Positions 23,956 to 62,995 of a DNA stretch of 64,000 nt are shown piece after piece (position 1 is the stretch's first letter; each line of letters opens with the position of its first letter). This DNA is from a virus. The notes beneath the pieces were generated by a model. That model was not told the origin of the DNA and ran no database searches. It worked only from the letters and a program-made list of their open reading frames with translations. The position numbers were made by a program, and so were the translations under genes. The stretch covers positions 24,469-88,468 of the IMG/VR virus record IMGVR_UViG_3300042261_002391; one strand, 5' to 3'.

Positions 23956-24399
23956 TTACTTCTTGTAAAAATCACCCTTTTCGGCTTTATACACATCATA
24001 TGCATCGATTGCTATTTTACGTGCTGCTATATATTTTTTACGTGCTTCTTGAATTTTTTCTTCCTTAAGACTTATTTTTACTGATGGTGCTGGACTTTTA
24101 AAATCCTTATACACCTCACGTTGCAAGAAGTGAAAGAAACGATTAATTGTACGCAATGTTTGTTTATTAACACAACTATTGATATTATTCTTCAATTTCT
24201 TTCTTTGGTTGAGAGATAAGTTTGTAATCATTAATGATAAAATGTTTTCATTAATGTTGAAGTTATTCAATCTCCAATTTTCAATTGCAATTTTTTCATT
24301 GATTTTTTGTACTGCGGTGTTTACACCTTTTACTAACTCGTTTACGCTTCTGTGATTTAATACGTTATTTTCTTTTACTAAAGTTTCCATAATATACAT
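23956..24399 (-). CDS. basic hypothetical protein downstream of amber leader
   Basis: 147-aa ORF. Confidence 0.75.
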   Translation of the reverse strand: MYIMETLVKENNVLNHRSVNELVKGVNTAVQKINEKIAIENWRLNNFNINENILSLMITNLSLNQRKKLKNNINSCVNKQTLRTINRFFHFLQREVYKDFKSPAPSVKISLKEEKIQEARKKYIAARKIAIDAYDVYKAEKGDFYKK

Positions 24400-24501
24400 T
24401 TTTTATTTTTGATTATAATTTATTGAACAATAATAATATTCCAAATTCCGATATGGAATATTTGCGATTCTCAAATCACGAATCTGGTTATAATCAAACT
24501 A

Positions 24502-24537
24502 TTATGGAGGTCTGTTGATAATCTATGTGTCTTTCAT
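24502..24537 (-). CDS. putative amber-containing leader peptide MKDT(TAG)IINRPP(TAA)
   Basis: Read by hand; starts 5 nt after PTH2 stop; followed by an 11-bp inverted repeat that masks the next start region. Confidence 0.65.
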
Positions 24538-24541
24538 ACTT

Positions 24542-24880
24542 TTAATTTTTTAATGCTAAATCTAATGATTGAGTAATTTTACGCATCTCCGGAGTACCGT
24601 AGAAGCATACAGAGGTCATTTGGTTGTCGATGTCAGGTTCGTGGAACGAAATAACATCAGCACCATTAGAAACTAATTTTGAATAAAGTTTTTGGAGTTC
24701 ATCTTCATTATTAATTTCAAGTACGATAATGTAATTAGAAGCTTCATACCATCTATTAAACAATTTATTATTTTTTATCGAAAAATCAGCAATGGCATGA
24801 TTTGATTGTGCAATCATTAATCCATTACTTAAATCATTTCTAACAACAATAACTAATTTATCAATCTACTTATCTTTCAT
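24542..24880 (-). CDS. PTH2-family peptidyl-tRNA hydrolase with in-frame TAG at codon 5
   Basis: MKDK*IDKLVIVVRNDLSNGLMIAQSNHA... matches the PTH2 N-terminal signature (KxVIVVRxDL...G...AQ..HA); FHEPDIDNQMT later. Confidence 0.8.
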
Positions 24881-25783
24881 AACTAAACAATTTAATTTAT
24901 TAATAATATTTTCGTTATATTTTATTCTAATCATTCTTATTTTATTTTCAAAGCAATAGTTGTTTTTTATTAAGTCCCTTCTTTTAATGTTTAAAAATTC
25001 TGACTTCCCGCCAAATGCATCAATTGGCTTATAATGTTGAATTCCATCAAATTCAATGACAATATTTAAATCAGGTAAATAAAAATCAAATCTAAGATTA
25101 CCATTATCGATACAATTATCAAATGATTTTTCTCTTATATAGAGTATATTTTCATTGTTTAAAAATTCAGCAATAATAGATTCTCCTTTTGATTCATTAC
25201 ATATTGGACATCCAATTCCTCTCATGTGATGTACTGGTGCTTGTTGAAACATACCGTGATTAGGACATATTATTGTAACTTTGGTTTTATTGTTAATATA
25301 ATTAACCAATGAATAGTCATACTTTCTATTATGAATATTATTCGATGTTTCAATAAATTCTTCCTGAGATAATTTAAGTTTATTAGCCTTATATTCAATT
25401 GCGCATTTAGGACAGCCTGACTTTTTTAAAATGTGACTTTTAGGCGTTTGTTGAAATATACCGTGTTTTTTACACTGAATTTTTATTTTGGTATAATAAT
25501 TTACATAATCAACCAATGTATAATCATACGTATCGCCATGTATCTCGACACATTTAGCAATAATATCTAATGTGGTATGCCTATTTTTTTGCAAAATTTT
25601 AGTATACCCACATTTTTTACAACCTTGACCAGCTATATGATTTTTAGGCGTTTGAAAAAAATCGCCATGAATTGGACACGTGATAATTATTTTTGTAGTG
25701 TTATTAATATATTCGACTTTATTATAGTCATACTTATCACCATGTTTTTTTATTGCATTAAGTATAAATTTACTAGTATTCAT
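24866..25783 (-). mobile_element. free-standing homing endonuclease (three DUF723-like CPxHG/CxxC repeats + PD-(D/E)xK domain) inserted at the PTH2 gene
   Basis: KHGDKYDY...CPIHG repeats; LRFDFYLP...IEFDGIQH. Confidence 0.85.
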
Positions 25784-25885
25784 AATATCGTTTACTATAA
25801 ATACTAAGTATTTGTCTAAAAGATAACCAGCTTTTAAATCCTTTCTGGTAATCGTAACTAATTTAACCTAGTGTGTGTGTCTCAT
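25784..25885 (-). pseudogene. displaced 5' end of a PTH2 gene, MRHTH(TAG)VKLVTITRKDLKAGY
   Basis: Homologous to the PTH2 N-terminus at 24880 and in frame with the endonuclease. Confidence 0.7.
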
Positions 25886-25972
25886 AACTTTTAGAGTTTA
25901 ATTATAAATACTATTGAATTGCAAATGTAATGAATAATTTTTAATATACAAGCAATTTCAAATAAATTTTTG

Positions 25973-26046
25973 AGATTCTAGTGGGATTCGAACCCACGAT
26001 TTTCAAGTTTTAGAGACCTGTGCAATAACCACTCTGCCATAGAACC
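25973..26046 (-). tRNA. amber suppressor tRNA (CTA anticodon)
   Basis: GGTTCTA/TAGAATC acceptor, CAGGT-CTCTAAA-ACTTG anticodon arm, U73. Confidence 0.92.
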
Positions 26047-27019: not shown

Positions 27020-27037
27020 GTTGAGTAAATTTTTTTG

Positions 27038-27123
27038 TAGCGGATACAGGATTCGAACCTGTGACTCCTTTTGGGAGTTCTGGCTTATGAGACCAGCGAG
27101 ATAGTCCACTTCTCTAATCCACA
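27038..27123 (-). tRNA. tRNA-Met(CAT), initiator-like, with long variable arm
   Basis: 1:72 mismatch, loop CTCATAA, extra arm ACTCC-CAAAA-GGAGT. Confidence 0.85.
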
Positions 27124-28097: not shown

Positions 28098-28793
28098 TTA
28101 CAACTTTTTCAATAAATTTTTATTTTCATTTCTTTTTTCTCTTCTTTTAGTTCTCCCGTTACCCTTATTTAATGCACCATATGTCGGTGTTAATGAATGG
28201 CAATTAGGACATAATAATTCTAAATTATTCAAGCTATTATTGTCAGAATTTCCATCTTTATGTTCTAATTGTATTGGTACTAATCCAGTAGTTTGATTAA
28301 TTTCATGCCATCCACACTTCATACATTTATCACCACATTTAAATATTAAATATTTTTTATATGTATCTGAGCTATATGTTGTGTTACCCGATTCGATATT
28401 ATTGAAAATTAAATTTTGTTTATATGTATTACTACATTCAACAGAACAAAATTTATTTTGATTACTGTTTAAATCATTTCCACAATTTAAACATTTTTTT
28501 AGCTTTACAAAATTGCTCACTCTTTTAGGATATTTTCTATTATTATATTTAGCACTACACGACCTACAACAAAATTTTCTACTATCATTAATCATTCCGA
28601 TAAATTCGCCACCACAATTTAAGCAAACAATCTTTTCACGTATATTAGATGTATTTTGTTTATATCCTAATTTATTTAATTTAACTTGAACGCTCCTAAA
28701 ACTACGATTTAATTCTTTAGCGATTCCTTCAAGTCTCATACCTGATTTATTCAAAAAAACAGCTTTTTCAATATCTTCTTTCGACCATTTCAT
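28098..28793 (-). mobile_element. HNH homing endonuclease
   Basis: CMKCG...LEHKDGN...N...LCPNCH; follows tRNA-Gly. Confidence 0.9.
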
Positions 28794-28851
28794 AATATAT
28801 AATTTATTATAAATACTATAAAATGCGAAAAAAGATTTTCGAAACTAATTG

Positions 28852-29898: not shown

Positions 29899-29981
29899 AA
29901 TATTTTTTTATATAAATACTATGAATATTAAAATCGAACTAAAAAATCAAAAATAAATTTTATTGTTATTGGTTCGATTAG

Positions 29982-35528: not shown

Positions 35529-35602
35529 TTCACATCTAAAGATTCATGACTTCTTTTCGATGCACAAACCAAAACGATGGTGTCCTATCCATTTTGGTTT
35601 TG

Positions 35603-35697
35603 AGGAAGAAGTCGGACTCGAACCGACACACCACGTTCTTCACATGATTACTCGTAGTTTTCAAGACTACTCCCTTACCAATTAGGGTTATTCTTCC
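35603..35697 (-). tRNA. tRNA-Ser(TGA)
   Basis: Class II cloverleaf, loop CTTGAAA. Confidence 0.92.
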
Positions 35698-35707
35698 ATT
35701 ATTATCG

Positions 35708-35788
35708 TAGTGATGGTGGGATTCGAACCCACATTACCTTACGGTACACCTTATCAGGGTGCTGCCTTAACCAATCGACCACATCACT
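35708..35788 (-). tRNA. tRNA-Ile(GAT) with long variable arm
   Basis: Loop CTGATAA; extra arm ACC-GTAA-GGT. Confidence 0.88.
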
Positions 35789-48780: not shown

Positions 48781-48836
48781 AATTTGAACTAATTTTAATA
48801 TAAATACTATTAAAATTAAAATTAGTTCAAATTTAG

Positions 48837-50321: not shown

Positions 50322-50384
50322 AGTATTTCGTTTTCATATAAATACTATGAAAAATGGCTACATTGTTAAATGCAGCCATTTTAT

Positions 50385-59520: not shown

Positions 59521-59619
59521 ATTTTTGTATGAAAATTCCGTCAATAACTCTCATTTTCGACGTTAGTGTTGGTTATTTCCGACAAAACAATATCTTTTGT
59601 TGATAATAAGCAACATCAG

Positions 59620-59709
59620 TACAGCGTAGGGGATTCGAACCCCTGATACCTCTATTAGAAGTATATCAGATTGAAAGTCTGACAACATAAGCCACTCGTT
59701 CAACGCTGC
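59620..59709 (-). tRNA. tRNA-Glu(TTC) with long variable arm
   Basis: TCAGA-CTTTCAA-TCTGA; extra arm ATACTTCT-AAT-AGAGGTAT. Confidence 0.85.
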
Positions 59710-62857: not shown

Positions 62858-62912
62858 CGCTCTTTTTTCTTGCAAAGATAAATAATAATTTCAATCACAC
62901 AAGTATTTTTTG

Positions 62913-62995
62913 TAGTCCCCGCAGGATTCGAACCTGCAAACCCGTTAGAGTGTCGGCTTCAAAGACCGATGCATTAACCATTCTGCCAGAGGACT
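62913..62995 (-). tRNA. tRNA-Gln(TTG) with long variable arm
   Basis: TCGGT-CTTTGAA-GCCGA; extra arm ACTC-TAAC-GGGT. Confidence 0.83.

What the first reader, a model, noticed from the sequence alone, without database searches (positions are those of the whole stretch)
24502..26046. Amber-gated module: suppressor tRNA directly upstream of three ORFs with TAG at codon 5-6
Seen: tRNA(CTA) at 25973-26046, then MRHTH*VKLVTITRKDL (ATG 25885), MKDK*IDKLVIVVRNDL...AQSNHA (ATG 24880, PTH2 family) and MKDT*IINRPP (ATG 24537). The PTH2 signature strand lies just after the TAG and before the next Met, so intact enzyme needs read-through. The TAG sits at the equivalent position in two diverged copies of the N-terminus, which argues against sequencing error. 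TAG is a real stop elsewhere (e.g. 12091, 13718, 33484, 56909), so this is conditional read-through, not genome-wide recoding. Inference: a sensor of suppressor tRNA level or RF1 failure that turns on peptidyl-tRNA recycling.
Basis: partly seen in the sequence, partly recalled or inferred. Interest (0 to 1): 0.88.

Follow-up and report, generated by a model that had tools for sequence, protein, structure and literature searches.

The report
Suppressor-tRNA-gated phage tRNA-hydrolase module
A freshwater giant phage that uses the normal genetic code carries its own UAG-reading tRNA next to a small tRNA-hydrolase-like gene and a tiny stalling leader that can each be read only past an early UAG stop; dozens of distant phages, some lab-grown, keep this layout, which I did not find described in print.

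Summary
They are three different things.

1. ATG 24880 is the live gene: a PTH2-fold protein whose first strand begins right after the TAG.
2. ATG 25885 is the decayed 5' end of an older copy of that gene, cut off by an inserted homing-endonuclease gene.
3. ATG 24537 (MKDT-TAG-IINRPP-stop) is a conserved amber-interrupted leader. Its Arg-Pro-Pro end pairs with the start codon of the next gene.

Of 62 non-redundant relatives (30-60% identity), 43 have a short ATG leader, then TAG, then the PTH2 strand, with no usable start after the TAG. None uses TAA or TGA. A co-oriented tRNA(CUA) lies within 6 kb in 37 of the 48 gated loci. Cultured Yersinia and Pectobacterium jumbo phages have the same layout, unannotated or truncated.

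The contig and a complete relative otherwise use the standard code, with TAG as a real stop.

Most likely the phage suppressor tRNA gates both the enzyme and, through the stalling leader, the next gene. Nothing is experimental. What the circuit is for is inference.

This scan has met the module before on other DNA. I found no published description.

The parts
25972..26046 (-). Amber-suppressor-type tRNA, anticodon CUA. Elongator-type cloverleaf, discriminator U73.
   Evidence: ARAGORN. Rfam RF00005 59.3 bits. A 92%-identical copy lies 1.3 kb upstream of PTH2 in L004/G003. Nearest tRNA in its own phage is tRNA-Cys(GCA) at 74%.
25903..25913 (-). Promoter-like motif TAGTATTTATA, 17 nt upstream of the old leader ATG 25885.
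   Evidence: 14 matches in the window against 6.8 expected; 0 of 100 shuffles reach 14. Exact copies lie mostly on the coding strand just upstream of gene starts. The same motif precedes leader ATGs in L003, L004 and L008.
25820..25885 (-). Decayed 5' end of an older amber-gated PTH2 copy: MRHTH-TAG-VKLVTITRKDLKAGYL. It is in frame with the endonuclease ORF.
   Evidence: It matches the clade consensus VKLVTVTRKDLxAGYQ better than the live copy does. An equivalent remnant sits upstream of the homologous endonuclease in L042. L113 has one upstream of an unrelated HNH/NUMOD3 endonuclease.
24866..25783 (-). Homing-endonuclease-like gene, 305 aa: three treble-clef Zn repeats plus a C-terminal nuclease domain. 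It has its own TAGTATTTATA motif at 25796-25806 and ends at the PTH2 gate TAG.
   Evidence: phrog_559 E 6e-78, phrog_681, phrog_9084. Pfam DUF723/DUF4379. 68% identical to the ORF in the same place in L042.
24542..24880 (-). Live PTH2-fold gene: leader ATG 24880 (MKDK), gate TAG 24868-24866, 107 codons, stop TAA 24544-24542.
   Evidence: PF01981. AF2 pLDDT 95.5. Foldseek TM 0.78-0.83 to 2zv3, 1wn2, 1q7s, 1xty. The gate is conserved in 43+5 of 62 non-redundant loci.
24502..24537 (-). Amber-interrupted leader MKDT-TAG(24525-24523)-IINRPP-TAA, starting 4 nt after the PTH2 stop.
   Evidence: Conserved mini-ORF M-x(1-4)-TAG-[IV]-x-x-R-[PGAS]-P(-P). There are 41 hits with TAG on the PTH2 strand, against 5 with TAA and 6 with TGA.
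24500..24508 (-). 3' end of the leader (UCCAUAAUA): one arm of a long-range pairing.
   Evidence: RNAduplex gives -10.2 kcal/mol over 9 bp; 0.7% of control windows do as well. 12-13 of 15 loci give -10 to -19 kcal/mol against a control mean near -3.8, with compensatory changes. The pairing is also in the MFE fold.
24386..24394 (-). Other arm (UAUUAUGGA), covering the start codon ATG 24390-24388 of the next gene.
   Evidence: The start context ATTATTATGGAAAC is conserved across the clade.
23956..24390 (-). Conserved downstream gene (METLVK..., 144 aa), no known family. It is the presumed target of the leader.
   Evidence: Syntenic 'MET.VK' genes follow the leader in 14 loci. Alignment A2. No credible Pfam hit (two sub-threshold chance-level matches only) and no Atlas lead.

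Best explanation
This is a suppressor-tRNA-gated module of a standard-code jumbo phage.

Gate on the enzyme. Translation of the PTH2-like gene starts at the ATG of a 4-codon leader and meets UAG at codon 5. Host RF1 ends it there, releasing a tetrapeptide. If instead the phage's own tRNA(CUA), encoded just upstream, decodes the UAG, the full 112-residue protein is made. Its first beta-strand begins two residues after the UAG.

Gate on the next gene. Four bases after the PTH2 stop, a second UAG sits in a 12-codon leader. Only a ribosome that reads through it reaches Arg-Pro-Pro-stop. That motif is of the RAPP/RGPP stalling kind, and there the ribosome sits on the RNA segment that otherwise pairs with the start codon of the next gene. 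This should switch that gene on.

Both outputs therefore follow the ratio of suppressor activity to RF1 activity.

The remnant. The upstream copy (ATG 25885) is a scar. A homing-endonuclease gene entered the old PTH2 copy after codon ~22, at the G-Y-Q coding site, and a complete, diverged copy with its own amber gate now follows it.

What is shown and what is inferred.
- Shown: the sequences, their conservation, the linkage to tRNA(CUA), the fold, the pairing.
- Inferred: that the tRNA is made and charged, that it reads these UAGs, that RPP stalls the ribosome, that the protein hydrolyses peptidyl- or aminoacyl-tRNA, and what the circuit is for.
For: 1. No alternative start. There is no ATG, GTG or TTG between the TAG and Met 24817. 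In G001 the next start is 71 codons into a 106-codon frame. 43 of 62 non-redundant homologues have none.

2. The leader ATG is the real start. Where hosts use Shine-Dalgarno sites, a GGAG-type site lies 5-9 nt before the leader ATG, not before the strand. This holds in L073, L076, L079, L084, L096-L098, L107, Yersinia fHe-Yen9-04 and Pectobacterium CBB.

3. The gate stop is always TAG: 48 of 48 against 0 TAA or TGA, although TAG is 10-17% of the stops that precede long open frames in G001 and G000.

4. Linkage to the tRNA. A tRNA(CUA) lies within 6 kb in 37 of 48 gated loci. All 42 copies are co-oriented, and in 11 loci it is the only tRNA present. Three complete genomes without a nearby copy were checked. 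Two carry one elsewhere. The third has only a sub-threshold tRNA-like element with a UUCUAAA loop, 2.2 kb upstream of its PTH2.

5. Conserved 3' context TAG-R-T-W-A-A-A: purine at +4 in 47 of 48, T at +5 in 39 of 48.

6. The family profile aligns the residue after the TAG with Met1 of M. jannaschii Pth2. The fold is confirmed.

7. The leader: enrichment, fixed position and covarying pairing with the next start codon. RAPP arrest mechanism in PMC10951233.

8. Seven of 13 PTH2 genes with ordinary starts instead have the amber R-x-P-P leader upstream. PTH2 is thus tied to UAG read-through either way.

9. Standard code otherwise. No other credible amber-interrupted gene in the contig.
Against: - There is no experimental or expression evidence. 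No RNA run holds the stretch.
- TAG ends 13 of 111 long ORFs in this contig and 24 of 446 in G001. They show no tandem back-up stops, so a strong suppressor should be costly.
- The suppressor tRNAs of different phages are very unlike each other, and the amino acid inserted is unknown.
- The Lys of the archaeal Pth2 G-K motif is Tyr or Leu here, so the enzymatic activity is unproven.
- In this window the endonuclease ORF is in frame and ends at the same TAG. Read-through would also make an endonuclease-PTH2 fusion.
- The live PTH2 copy has no promoter-like motif of its own.
- The window's leader has R-P-P, not the studied R-A/G-P-P. Its 9-bp pairing is among the weaker ones.
- Only 27% of this phage's genome is in hand.
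Confidence: 0.72

Rival explanations
1. The suppressor's main job is ordinary code-15-type recoding of late genes in the three quarters of this genome that are not in hand. PTH2 and the leader would then be two recoded ORFs among many, not a dedicated gate.
For: Only 27% of the genome is in the record. Phages with suppressor tRNAs and recoded late genes are well known (Borges et al., bioRxiv 10.1101/2021.08.26.457843). TAG is a minority stop here.
Against: The complete relative G001 (364.7 kb, terminal repeats) has 88.8% cover by ORFs of 80 aa or more under the standard code. Freeing TAG gains no more than freeing TGA, TAG ends 24 long ORFs, and PTH2 is the only convincing ATG-leader-TAG gene. 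The position of the TAG, always in the first 2-16 codons, and its fixed 3' context are not what scattered recoding gives.
Confidence: 0.1
2. The TAG is a true stop of a tiny upstream ORF. PTH2 is then made by re-initiation at the next codon (ATT here, GTT/GTA/ATT elsewhere), and the nearby tRNA(CUA) is unrelated.
For: The codon after TAG is ATT, ATA, GTT, GTA or ATG in 38 of 48 loci. In L074 it is ATG, and in Mycobacterium phage IkeLoa it is the annotated GTG start with a well-spaced GAAGG.
Against: GTT and GTA (20 of 48) differ from AUG at two positions and are not known bacterial starts (my knowledge). A start-stop device would work with TAA or TGA, yet 48 of 48 are TAG. This reading does not explain the co-oriented tRNA(CUA), or the same TAG inside the RPP leader and at codon 47 of the HD-like gene of cultured phages.
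Confidence: 0.08
3. The PTH2 gene is a decaying pseudogene, or it works as the 91-residue product from Met 24817.
For: Gene callers output the 91-aa form (P0002). Cultured-phage annotations leave the gene out or truncate it.
Against: The TAG is the only defect. It is kept at the same place across 30-60% identity, with the region between it and the next Met conserved (K3, L4, R9, D11, G15 invariant). Most homologues have no Met at that place. The 91-aa form lacks strand 1.
Confidence: 0.03
4. The TAG is decoded as a non-standard residue (pyrrolysine-like), as ARAGORN's label 'tRNA-Pyl' suggests.
For: ARAGORN's label.
Against: The label follows from the anticodon alone. The tRNA has an ordinary cloverleaf with the GG D loop and a T-psi-C-type T loop, and scores 59 bits on the general tRNA model. 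The suppressor tRNAs of relatives are unrelated to one another. Pyl genes were not searched for.
Confidence: 0.01

Closest known systems
Stop-codon recoding in phages with phage-encoded suppressor tRNAs (TAG read as Gln, 'code 15'; crAss-like and Lak phages; Borges et al., bioRxiv 10.1101/2021.08.26.457843)
   Same: A phage-borne tRNA(CUA) is needed to read in-frame TAG. The proposed use is to make some genes depend on the phage's own tRNA.
   Different: Here the genome is standard-code and TAG still ends genes. There are only a few client ORFs. The TAG sits at a fixed place in the first codons with a conserved 3' context, and the clients are tRNA-related genes next to the tRNA, not lysis or structural genes.
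RAPP/RGPP/RAGP ribosome-arrest leaders (ApdA, ApdP, SecM; PMC10951233)
   Same: A short upstream ORF ends in Arg-(x)-Pro-Pro and lies on RNA that pairs with the next gene's initiation region.
   Different: The stalling end is reached only after an in-frame UAG is read through. The input is therefore suppressor activity, not secretion or a small molecule. The window has R-P-P-stop, not R-A-P-P, and the stall is untested.
prfB (RF2) autoregulation through an early in-frame UGA
   Same: An early in-frame stop makes output depend on the contest between a release factor and another decoding event.
   Different: Same-frame read-through by a dedicated tRNA, not a +1 frameshift. The product is not a release factor, and no feedback is shown.
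Archaeal/eukaryotic peptidyl-tRNA hydrolase 2 (M. jannaschii 2zv3, S. solfataricus 1xty, human Bit1 1q7s)
   Same: Pfam PF01981 above cut-off and the same fold (TM about 0.8). The N-terminus is at the same place.
   Different: About 22-30% identity. A two-residue deletion and Tyr/Leu replace the Lys of the G-K motif. The C-terminal half is shorter, with an invariant E-P-D...Q-x-T. The host is a phage and the substrate is unknown.
Jumbo phage XacN1 and relatives: suppressor tRNAs reported with no known target (PMC5852040)
   Same: A standard-code jumbo phage with tRNA(CUA) genes and a peptidyl-tRNA hydrolase gene.
   Different: That study read through TAG only at ORF ends and found no targets. 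Early TAGs in leaders were not examined. I did not check XacN1's own Pth gene.

Membership tests
PTH2 (PF01981, peptidyl-tRNA hydrolase 2) | Match to the family profile above the curated cut-off | tested here: met
   40 bits against 23, E 5e-10, profile positions 2-89. The profile of A1 hits 2zv3 at E 3.6e-9.
PTH2 (PF01981, peptidyl-tRNA hydrolase 2) | Pth2 alpha/beta fold | tested here: met
   AF2 pLDDT 95.5, pTM 0.88. The top 13 Foldseek hits are all Pth2 structures, TM 0.73-0.83.
PTH2 (PF01981, peptidyl-tRNA hydrolase 2) | Catalytic residues: Lys of the G-K motif and the Asp reported for S. solfataricus Pth2 (recalled from memory) | tested here: inconclusive
   The Lys position aligns with Tyr or Leu after a 2-residue gap. 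An invariant E76-P77-D78 and T84 exist, but the profile alignment stops before them.
PTH2 (PF01981, peptidyl-tRNA hydrolase 2) | Hydrolysis of peptidyl-tRNA | not testable with these tools
   Needs an enzyme assay or complementation of a pth(ts) strain.
Code-15 (TAG-recoded) phages | Coding density clearly higher when TAG is read as sense; many genes with in-frame TAG | tested here: not met
   In G000 and G001, freeing TAG gains no more than freeing TGA. PTH2 is the only real ATG-leader-TAG gene.
Code-15 (TAG-recoded) phages | TAG no longer used as a terminator | tested here: not met
   TAG ends 13 of 111 (G000) and 24 of 446 (G001) open frames of 100 codons or more.
Code-15 (TAG-recoded) phages | Phage-encoded tRNA(CUA) | tested here: met
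RAPP-like arrest-peptide leaders | C-terminal R-[AG]-P-P motif | tested here: inconclusive
   The window has N-R-P-P-stop. Relatives range over RPP, RGP, RAP, RSP, RGPP and RAPP.
RAPP-like arrest-peptide leaders | The leader overlaps RNA that masks the initiation region of the regulated gene | tested here: met
   9-bp duplex over the next gene's ATG. Conserved with compensatory changes in 12-13 of 15 loci.
RAPP-like arrest-peptide leaders | Ribosome stalling at the motif | not testable with these tools
   Needs toeprinting or in vitro translation.
Homing endonuclease genes | Nuclease family match, and sporadic insertion at one conserved target site beside an immune allele | tested here: met
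   phrog_559/681/9084. Present in the window and L042-44 but absent in most relatives. An unrelated HNH sits at the same G-Y-Q site in L113. Intact copies behind the endonucleases read GQQ or GLM instead of GYQ. Cleavage itself is not tested.

The most novel reading that the evidence does not exclude
The module is a self-contained meter of stop-codon read-through. The phage suppressor tRNA is sensed twice: by a direct UAG gate on a tRNA-ester hydrolase, and by a UAG-dependent Arg-Pro-Pro stalling leader that unmasks the next gene. The PTH2-like enzyme then acts back on the suppressor's own acylated or peptidyl form, or on the drop-off products that read-through and stalling create. Suppression would thus be held at a level that serves the phage without wrecking termination at its own TAG-ended genes.
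Probability: 0.2. Interest if true: 0.92.

Novelty: new variant of a known kind. Interest (0 to 1): 0.8.

Why it matters
Suppressor tRNAs in standard-code jumbo phages have had no known targets. The XacN1 paper (PMC5852040) says so outright. Here they have dedicated, conserved clients:
- a Pth2-fold gene;
- a stalling leader;
- in other phages, an HD-like tRNA-enzyme-like gene.

If the gate works as read, it is a natural counterpart of the amber-suppression switches used in synthetic biology. It would also be a simple step on the road from standard code to recoded phage genomes.

It explains why these genes are missing or truncated in the annotations of cultured phages (Yersinia fHe-Yen9-04, Pectobacterium CBB). 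It can be tested directly in laboratory hosts.

The recurrent endonuclease insertions at one site also show how such a gate is copied and kept when the gene is disrupted.

Tried and rejected
I could not check whether the Q at the gate position in database proteins (MKQVKLV..., MKDKQVNKLMV...) is a real CAG/CAA or a TAG translated under code 15. Near-identical leaders with TAG in IMG/VR DNA suggest the latter.
- Relatives of the upstream 152-aa gene: none found. No endonuclease-free sister locus of this phage could be shown.
- Identity of the suppressor from similarity to the phage's own tRNAs: no clear parent. The best is tRNA-Cys at 74%.
- Other amber-interrupted genes in the contig: every candidate whose homology spans a TAG overlaps a longer ORF on the other strand or frame, so all are alt-frame artefacts.
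- Phage-encoded release factor: no RF-1 domain in G000, G001, G004, G007 or G008.
- Function of the downstream 144-aa gene: no credible Pfam hit (two sub-threshold chance-level matches only) and no usable Atlas lead.
- RNA evidence: no RNA holder listed. The PTH2 gate TAG is not covered by contigs of the second sample or the second study.
- Scan of bacterial and archaeal genomes: the close hits are phage contigs filed inside MAGs, and the rest are true archaeal Pth2, so it gave no host clue.
- L010 (high GC, two tRNA(TCA) nearby): the in-frame TGA upstream looks like the previous gene's stop and a GTG start is present, so it is not a TGA analogue on this evidence.
- Initiator-type tRNA(CUA) starting at UAG: rejected. 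G1-C72 is paired and the anticodon stem has no three G-C pairs.
- Single-sequence fold of the leader region: z-score -0.69, not significant on its own.
Full report
WHAT THE WINDOW IS

The window is bases 24469-88468 of an 88,468-bp virus record. CheckV rates the record 27% complete. The window's own PTH2 protein also occurs on a 339,914-bp contig. The sequence is 32% G+C, has 39 tRNA genes in 64 kb, and its genes lie almost all on the minus strand. Public runs that hold the stretch are freshwater and lake metagenomes. It is a piece of a jumbo phage.

THE OBSERVATION

The tRNA(CUA) lies at 25972-26046 on the minus strand. It scores 59.3 bits on Rfam's tRNA model and has an ordinary cloverleaf.

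Read on the minus strand there is one continuous frame:
- ATG 25885, MRHTH, TAG, VKLVTITRKDLKAGYL...
- a 305-aa ORF, ending ...NCLVMKDK, TAG
- IDKLVIVVRNDL... (107 codons), TAA 24544-24542
- four bases later, ATG 24537, MKDT, TAG, IINRPP, TAA.

The 107-codon part is PTH2 (PF01981, 40 bits against a cut-off of 23). Its model (pLDDT 95.5) matches archaeal and human Pth2 structures at TM 0.78-0.83. Strand 1 is residues 3-9. The first canonical start after the TAG is residue 17.

IS THE PHAGE RECODED?

No.
- Freeing TAG lengthens ORFs no more than freeing TGA.
- TAG ends 13 of 111 long open frames in the contig. In the complete relative G001 (364.7 kb, terminal repeats) it ends 24 of 446.
- A scan for 'short ATG leader, stop, long frame with no start in 12 codons' finds PTH2 as the only convincing TAG case in both genomes.
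- Every other TAG with homology running across it lies in an alternative frame of a longer real gene.

THE GATE IS CONSERVED

Thirteen and then 80 IMG/VR loci encoding relatives (30-60% identity, contigs up to 508 kb) were fetched. They collapse to 62 distinct N-termini:
- 43 have ATG + 1-10 further sense codons + TAG + 1-13 codons + K-L-[VY]-x-[VI]-x-R-x-D, with no ATG, GTG or TTG after the TAG;
- 5 have the same but also a possible start;
- 13 have ordinary starts;
- 1 is unclear.

No gate uses TAA or TGA, though TAG is only 10-17% of the stops that precede long frames. Leaders vary freely: MK, MKK, MT, MS, MCL, MKDK and so on. Where hosts use Shine-Dalgarno sites, the site precedes the leader ATG. 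After the TAG the context is fixed as TAG-R-T-W-A-A-A. The family profile aligns the residue after the TAG with Met1 of M. jannaschii Pth2. The TAG therefore sits just in front of the natural N-terminus, where any inserted residue should be harmless.

LINKAGE TO THE tRNA

A tRNA(CUA) lies within 6 kb in 37 of 48 gated loci. It is always on the same strand, and in 11 loci it is the only tRNA present. Seven of the 13 ordinary-start homologues also have one 300-950 nt downstream.

Three complete genomes lacked a nearby copy. G007 has one 113 kb away. G010 has one 39 kb away. G008 has only a sub-threshold tRNA-like element (RF00005 23.6 bits, below the 29-bit cut-off; ARAGORN did not call it) with a UUCUAAA loop, 2.2 kb upstream of its PTH2.

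The suppressor tRNAs are very unlike each other. The amino acid inserted cannot be told. No RF-1-domain gene is present in five genomes, so host RF1 is the competitor.

CULTURED PHAGES

Yersinia phage fHe-Yen9-04 has GAGGA-7 nt-ATG TCT CAC TAG ATT..., giving MSH*IDKTWIYVFVRTDL. The gene is not annotated, and a tRNA-Sup-CTA lies 3.1 kb downstream.

Pectobacterium phage CBB has MAQ*NEKTWIYVFVRTDL, annotated in truncated form, with tRNA(CTA) 3.7 kb downstream.

Mycobacterium phage IkeLoa has ATG TAG GTG with the GTG annotated as the start, and tRNA(cta) 250 nt downstream.

The XacN1 paper states that no targets could be found for its two tRNA(CUA) genes. It had read through only ORF-terminal TAGs (PMC5852040).

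THE FIRST COPY IS A SCAR

The 305-aa ORF is a homing-endonuclease-like gene (phrog_559, E 6e-78). It is 68% identical to an ORF in the same position in L042-44.

Upstream of it the window keeps 22 codons of an older PTH2 start. These match the clade consensus VKLVTVTRKDLxAGYQ better than the live copy does. L042 has a more decayed remnant of the same kind.

In L113 an unrelated HNH/NUMOD3 endonuclease sits at the same point, after G-Y-Q-A-V-Q-A. It is again in frame with a TAG-bearing remnant and again followed by a complete gated copy. The intact copies behind endonucleases read GQQ or GLM instead of GYQ, as expected for alleles immune to cleavage. That last point is inference.

In the window the endonuclease ORF ends at the gate TAG. 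In L042 it ends at a TGA overlapping the leader ATG. Read-through here would therefore also give an endonuclease-PTH2 fusion.

THE THIRD COPY IS A CONSERVED LEADER

Mini-ORFs of the form M-x(1-4)-TAG-[IV]-x-x-R-[PGAS]-P(-P) occur 41 times on the PTH2 strand of the 62 loci. The same pattern with TAA occurs 5 times and with TGA 6 times.

In the window's clade the mini-ORF starts a few bases after the PTH2 stop: MKDT*IDIRPP, MKHL*MTTRPP, MKDK*IQIRPP and so on. In the distant clade it lies 400-1100 nt upstream: MH*VHSRGPP, MKDYL*IKTRAPP. That includes 7 of the 13 PTH2 genes with ordinary starts.

R-A-P-P and R-G-P-P are known arrest motifs that block peptide-bond formation with the A-site Pro-tRNA (PMC10951233).

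The leader's 3' end is complementary to the start-codon region of the next gene. In the window, 24508-24500 pairs with 24394-24386 (9 bp, -10.2 kcal/mol; 0.7% of control windows match it). In 12-13 of 15 loci the duplex is -10 to -19 kcal/mol against a control mean near -3.8, with compensatory changes: compare L066 AAUGGUGUG/CACACCAAU with L052 AAUAGUGUG/CACAUUAUU.

A ribosome that stops at the TAG leaves this pairing intact. One that reads through and stalls at RPP-stop sits on it. The next gene (METLVK..., 144 aa) is conserved but has no known family.

OTHER CLIENTS ELSEWHERE

A ~190-aa HD-like protein is fused to PTH2 in L067 and L079. It is amber-gated as a separate gene in L064, L075 and L081. 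It follows PTH2 in the two cultured enterobacterial phages, with a conserved TAG at codon 47, and is annotated there as two ORFs.

Its model (pLDDT 95) most resembles class II A/CCA-adding enzymes, weakly: TMq 0.59, E 0.009. An 86-88-aa gene after PTH2 is amber-gated in L068 and L072 but not in L071. Neither gene is in this contig or in G001.

WHAT IT MOST LIKELY DOES

The phage tRNA(CUA) decodes these early UAGs in competition with RF1. As a result the PTH2-like enzyme and, through the stalling leader, the next gene are made in step with suppressor activity. I put this at about 0.72.

The purpose is inference. It could be timing, a check that the phage's tRNA supply works, clearing of drop-off products that read-through and stalling create, or feedback on the suppressor itself. 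Feedback is the bold reading, at about 0.2.

Against a strong suppressor stand the phage's own TAG-ended genes. Against a classical hydrolase stands the missing Lys.

NOVELTY

Searches of the held literature found stop-codon recoding in phages, suppressor tRNAs without targets, and RAPP leaders. None describes an amber-gated Pth2 or an amber-dependent arrest leader.

This scan's own notes show the same module found earlier on other DNA: 368 notes in at least 234 genomes. This window is therefore a further instance. Two things are particular to it. The endonuclease insertion duplicated the gate, and the leader sits behind PTH2 rather than in front.

I found the RPP motif independently before reading those notes. 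The idea that the leader hides the next start, and the RAPP paper, came from the notes, and I tested the pairing here.

Noticed in passing
L121:4324-4890 (Yersinia phage fHe-Yen9-04) and L122:4309-4875 (Pectobacterium phage CBB): The HD-like gene right after PTH2 has a conserved in-frame TAG at codon 47 (DSG*GDS / DTG*GDS). It is annotated as two separate ORFs (g408+g409; CBB_407+CBB_408).
   Followed up: partly
L067:5971-6903, L079:5971-6909: PTH2 is fused in one frame to the ~200-aa HD-like domain. This fusion links the two proteins functionally.
   Followed up: partly
L068:4440-4700, L072:6527-6793, L071:6377-6607: An 86-88-aa gene of no known family directly after PTH2 is amber-gated (MM*I..., MT*I...) in two lineages. 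In a third it has a normal AAGGAGG + ATG start.
   Followed up: partly
window 25796-25806, 25903-25913, 28808-28818, 29911-29921, 48799-48809, 50337-50347 (minus strand): The motif TAGTATTTATA recurs 10-20 nt upstream of gene starts: 14 matches against 6.8 expected. It is probably a phage promoter element.
   Followed up: partly
window 24440-24495 and the same place in L050, L051, L052, L058, L059, L061, L066: Between the leader and the next gene lie conserved palindromic repeats of the type GATTCGCAATTCGCAAATCGC / TTGCGAATTGCGAA. They could be RNA hairpins or a protein-binding site.
   Followed up: no
window 27037-27123, 35602-35697, 35707-35788, 59619-59709, 62912-62995: Several phage tRNA genes are unusually long for their type (Met 87 nt, Ile 82 nt, Glu 91 nt, Gln 84 nt). 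They may carry introns or extra arms.
   Followed up: no
window 28098-28793 (minus strand): A 231-aa ORF with Cys-rich repeats and an HNH-like end (LEHKDGNSDNN...CPNCH) sits among the tRNA genes. It may be another mobile endonuclease.
   Followed up: no
L138 (JBAZIW010000001.1, 362,763 bp): A contig filed as a 'Candidatus Paceibacterota' MAG has the same length as the IMG/VR jumbo-phage contig of L050 and carries the module. It is probably a phage genome binned as a bacterium.
   Followed up: no
L077:3714-3790 (G008): An atypical tRNA-like element with a UUCUAAA anticodon loop and an odd D arm lies 2.2 kb upstream of a gated PTH2. ARAGORN misses it and RF00005 scores it 23.6 bits.
   Followed up: partly
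L123:3974-3982 (Mycobacterium phage IkeLoa) and other Bixzunavirus records: The annotated GTG start of the peptidyl-tRNA hydrolase is directly preceded by ATG TAG, and tRNA(cta) follows 250 nt downstream. Whether the ATG-TAG matters there is open.
   Followed up: no
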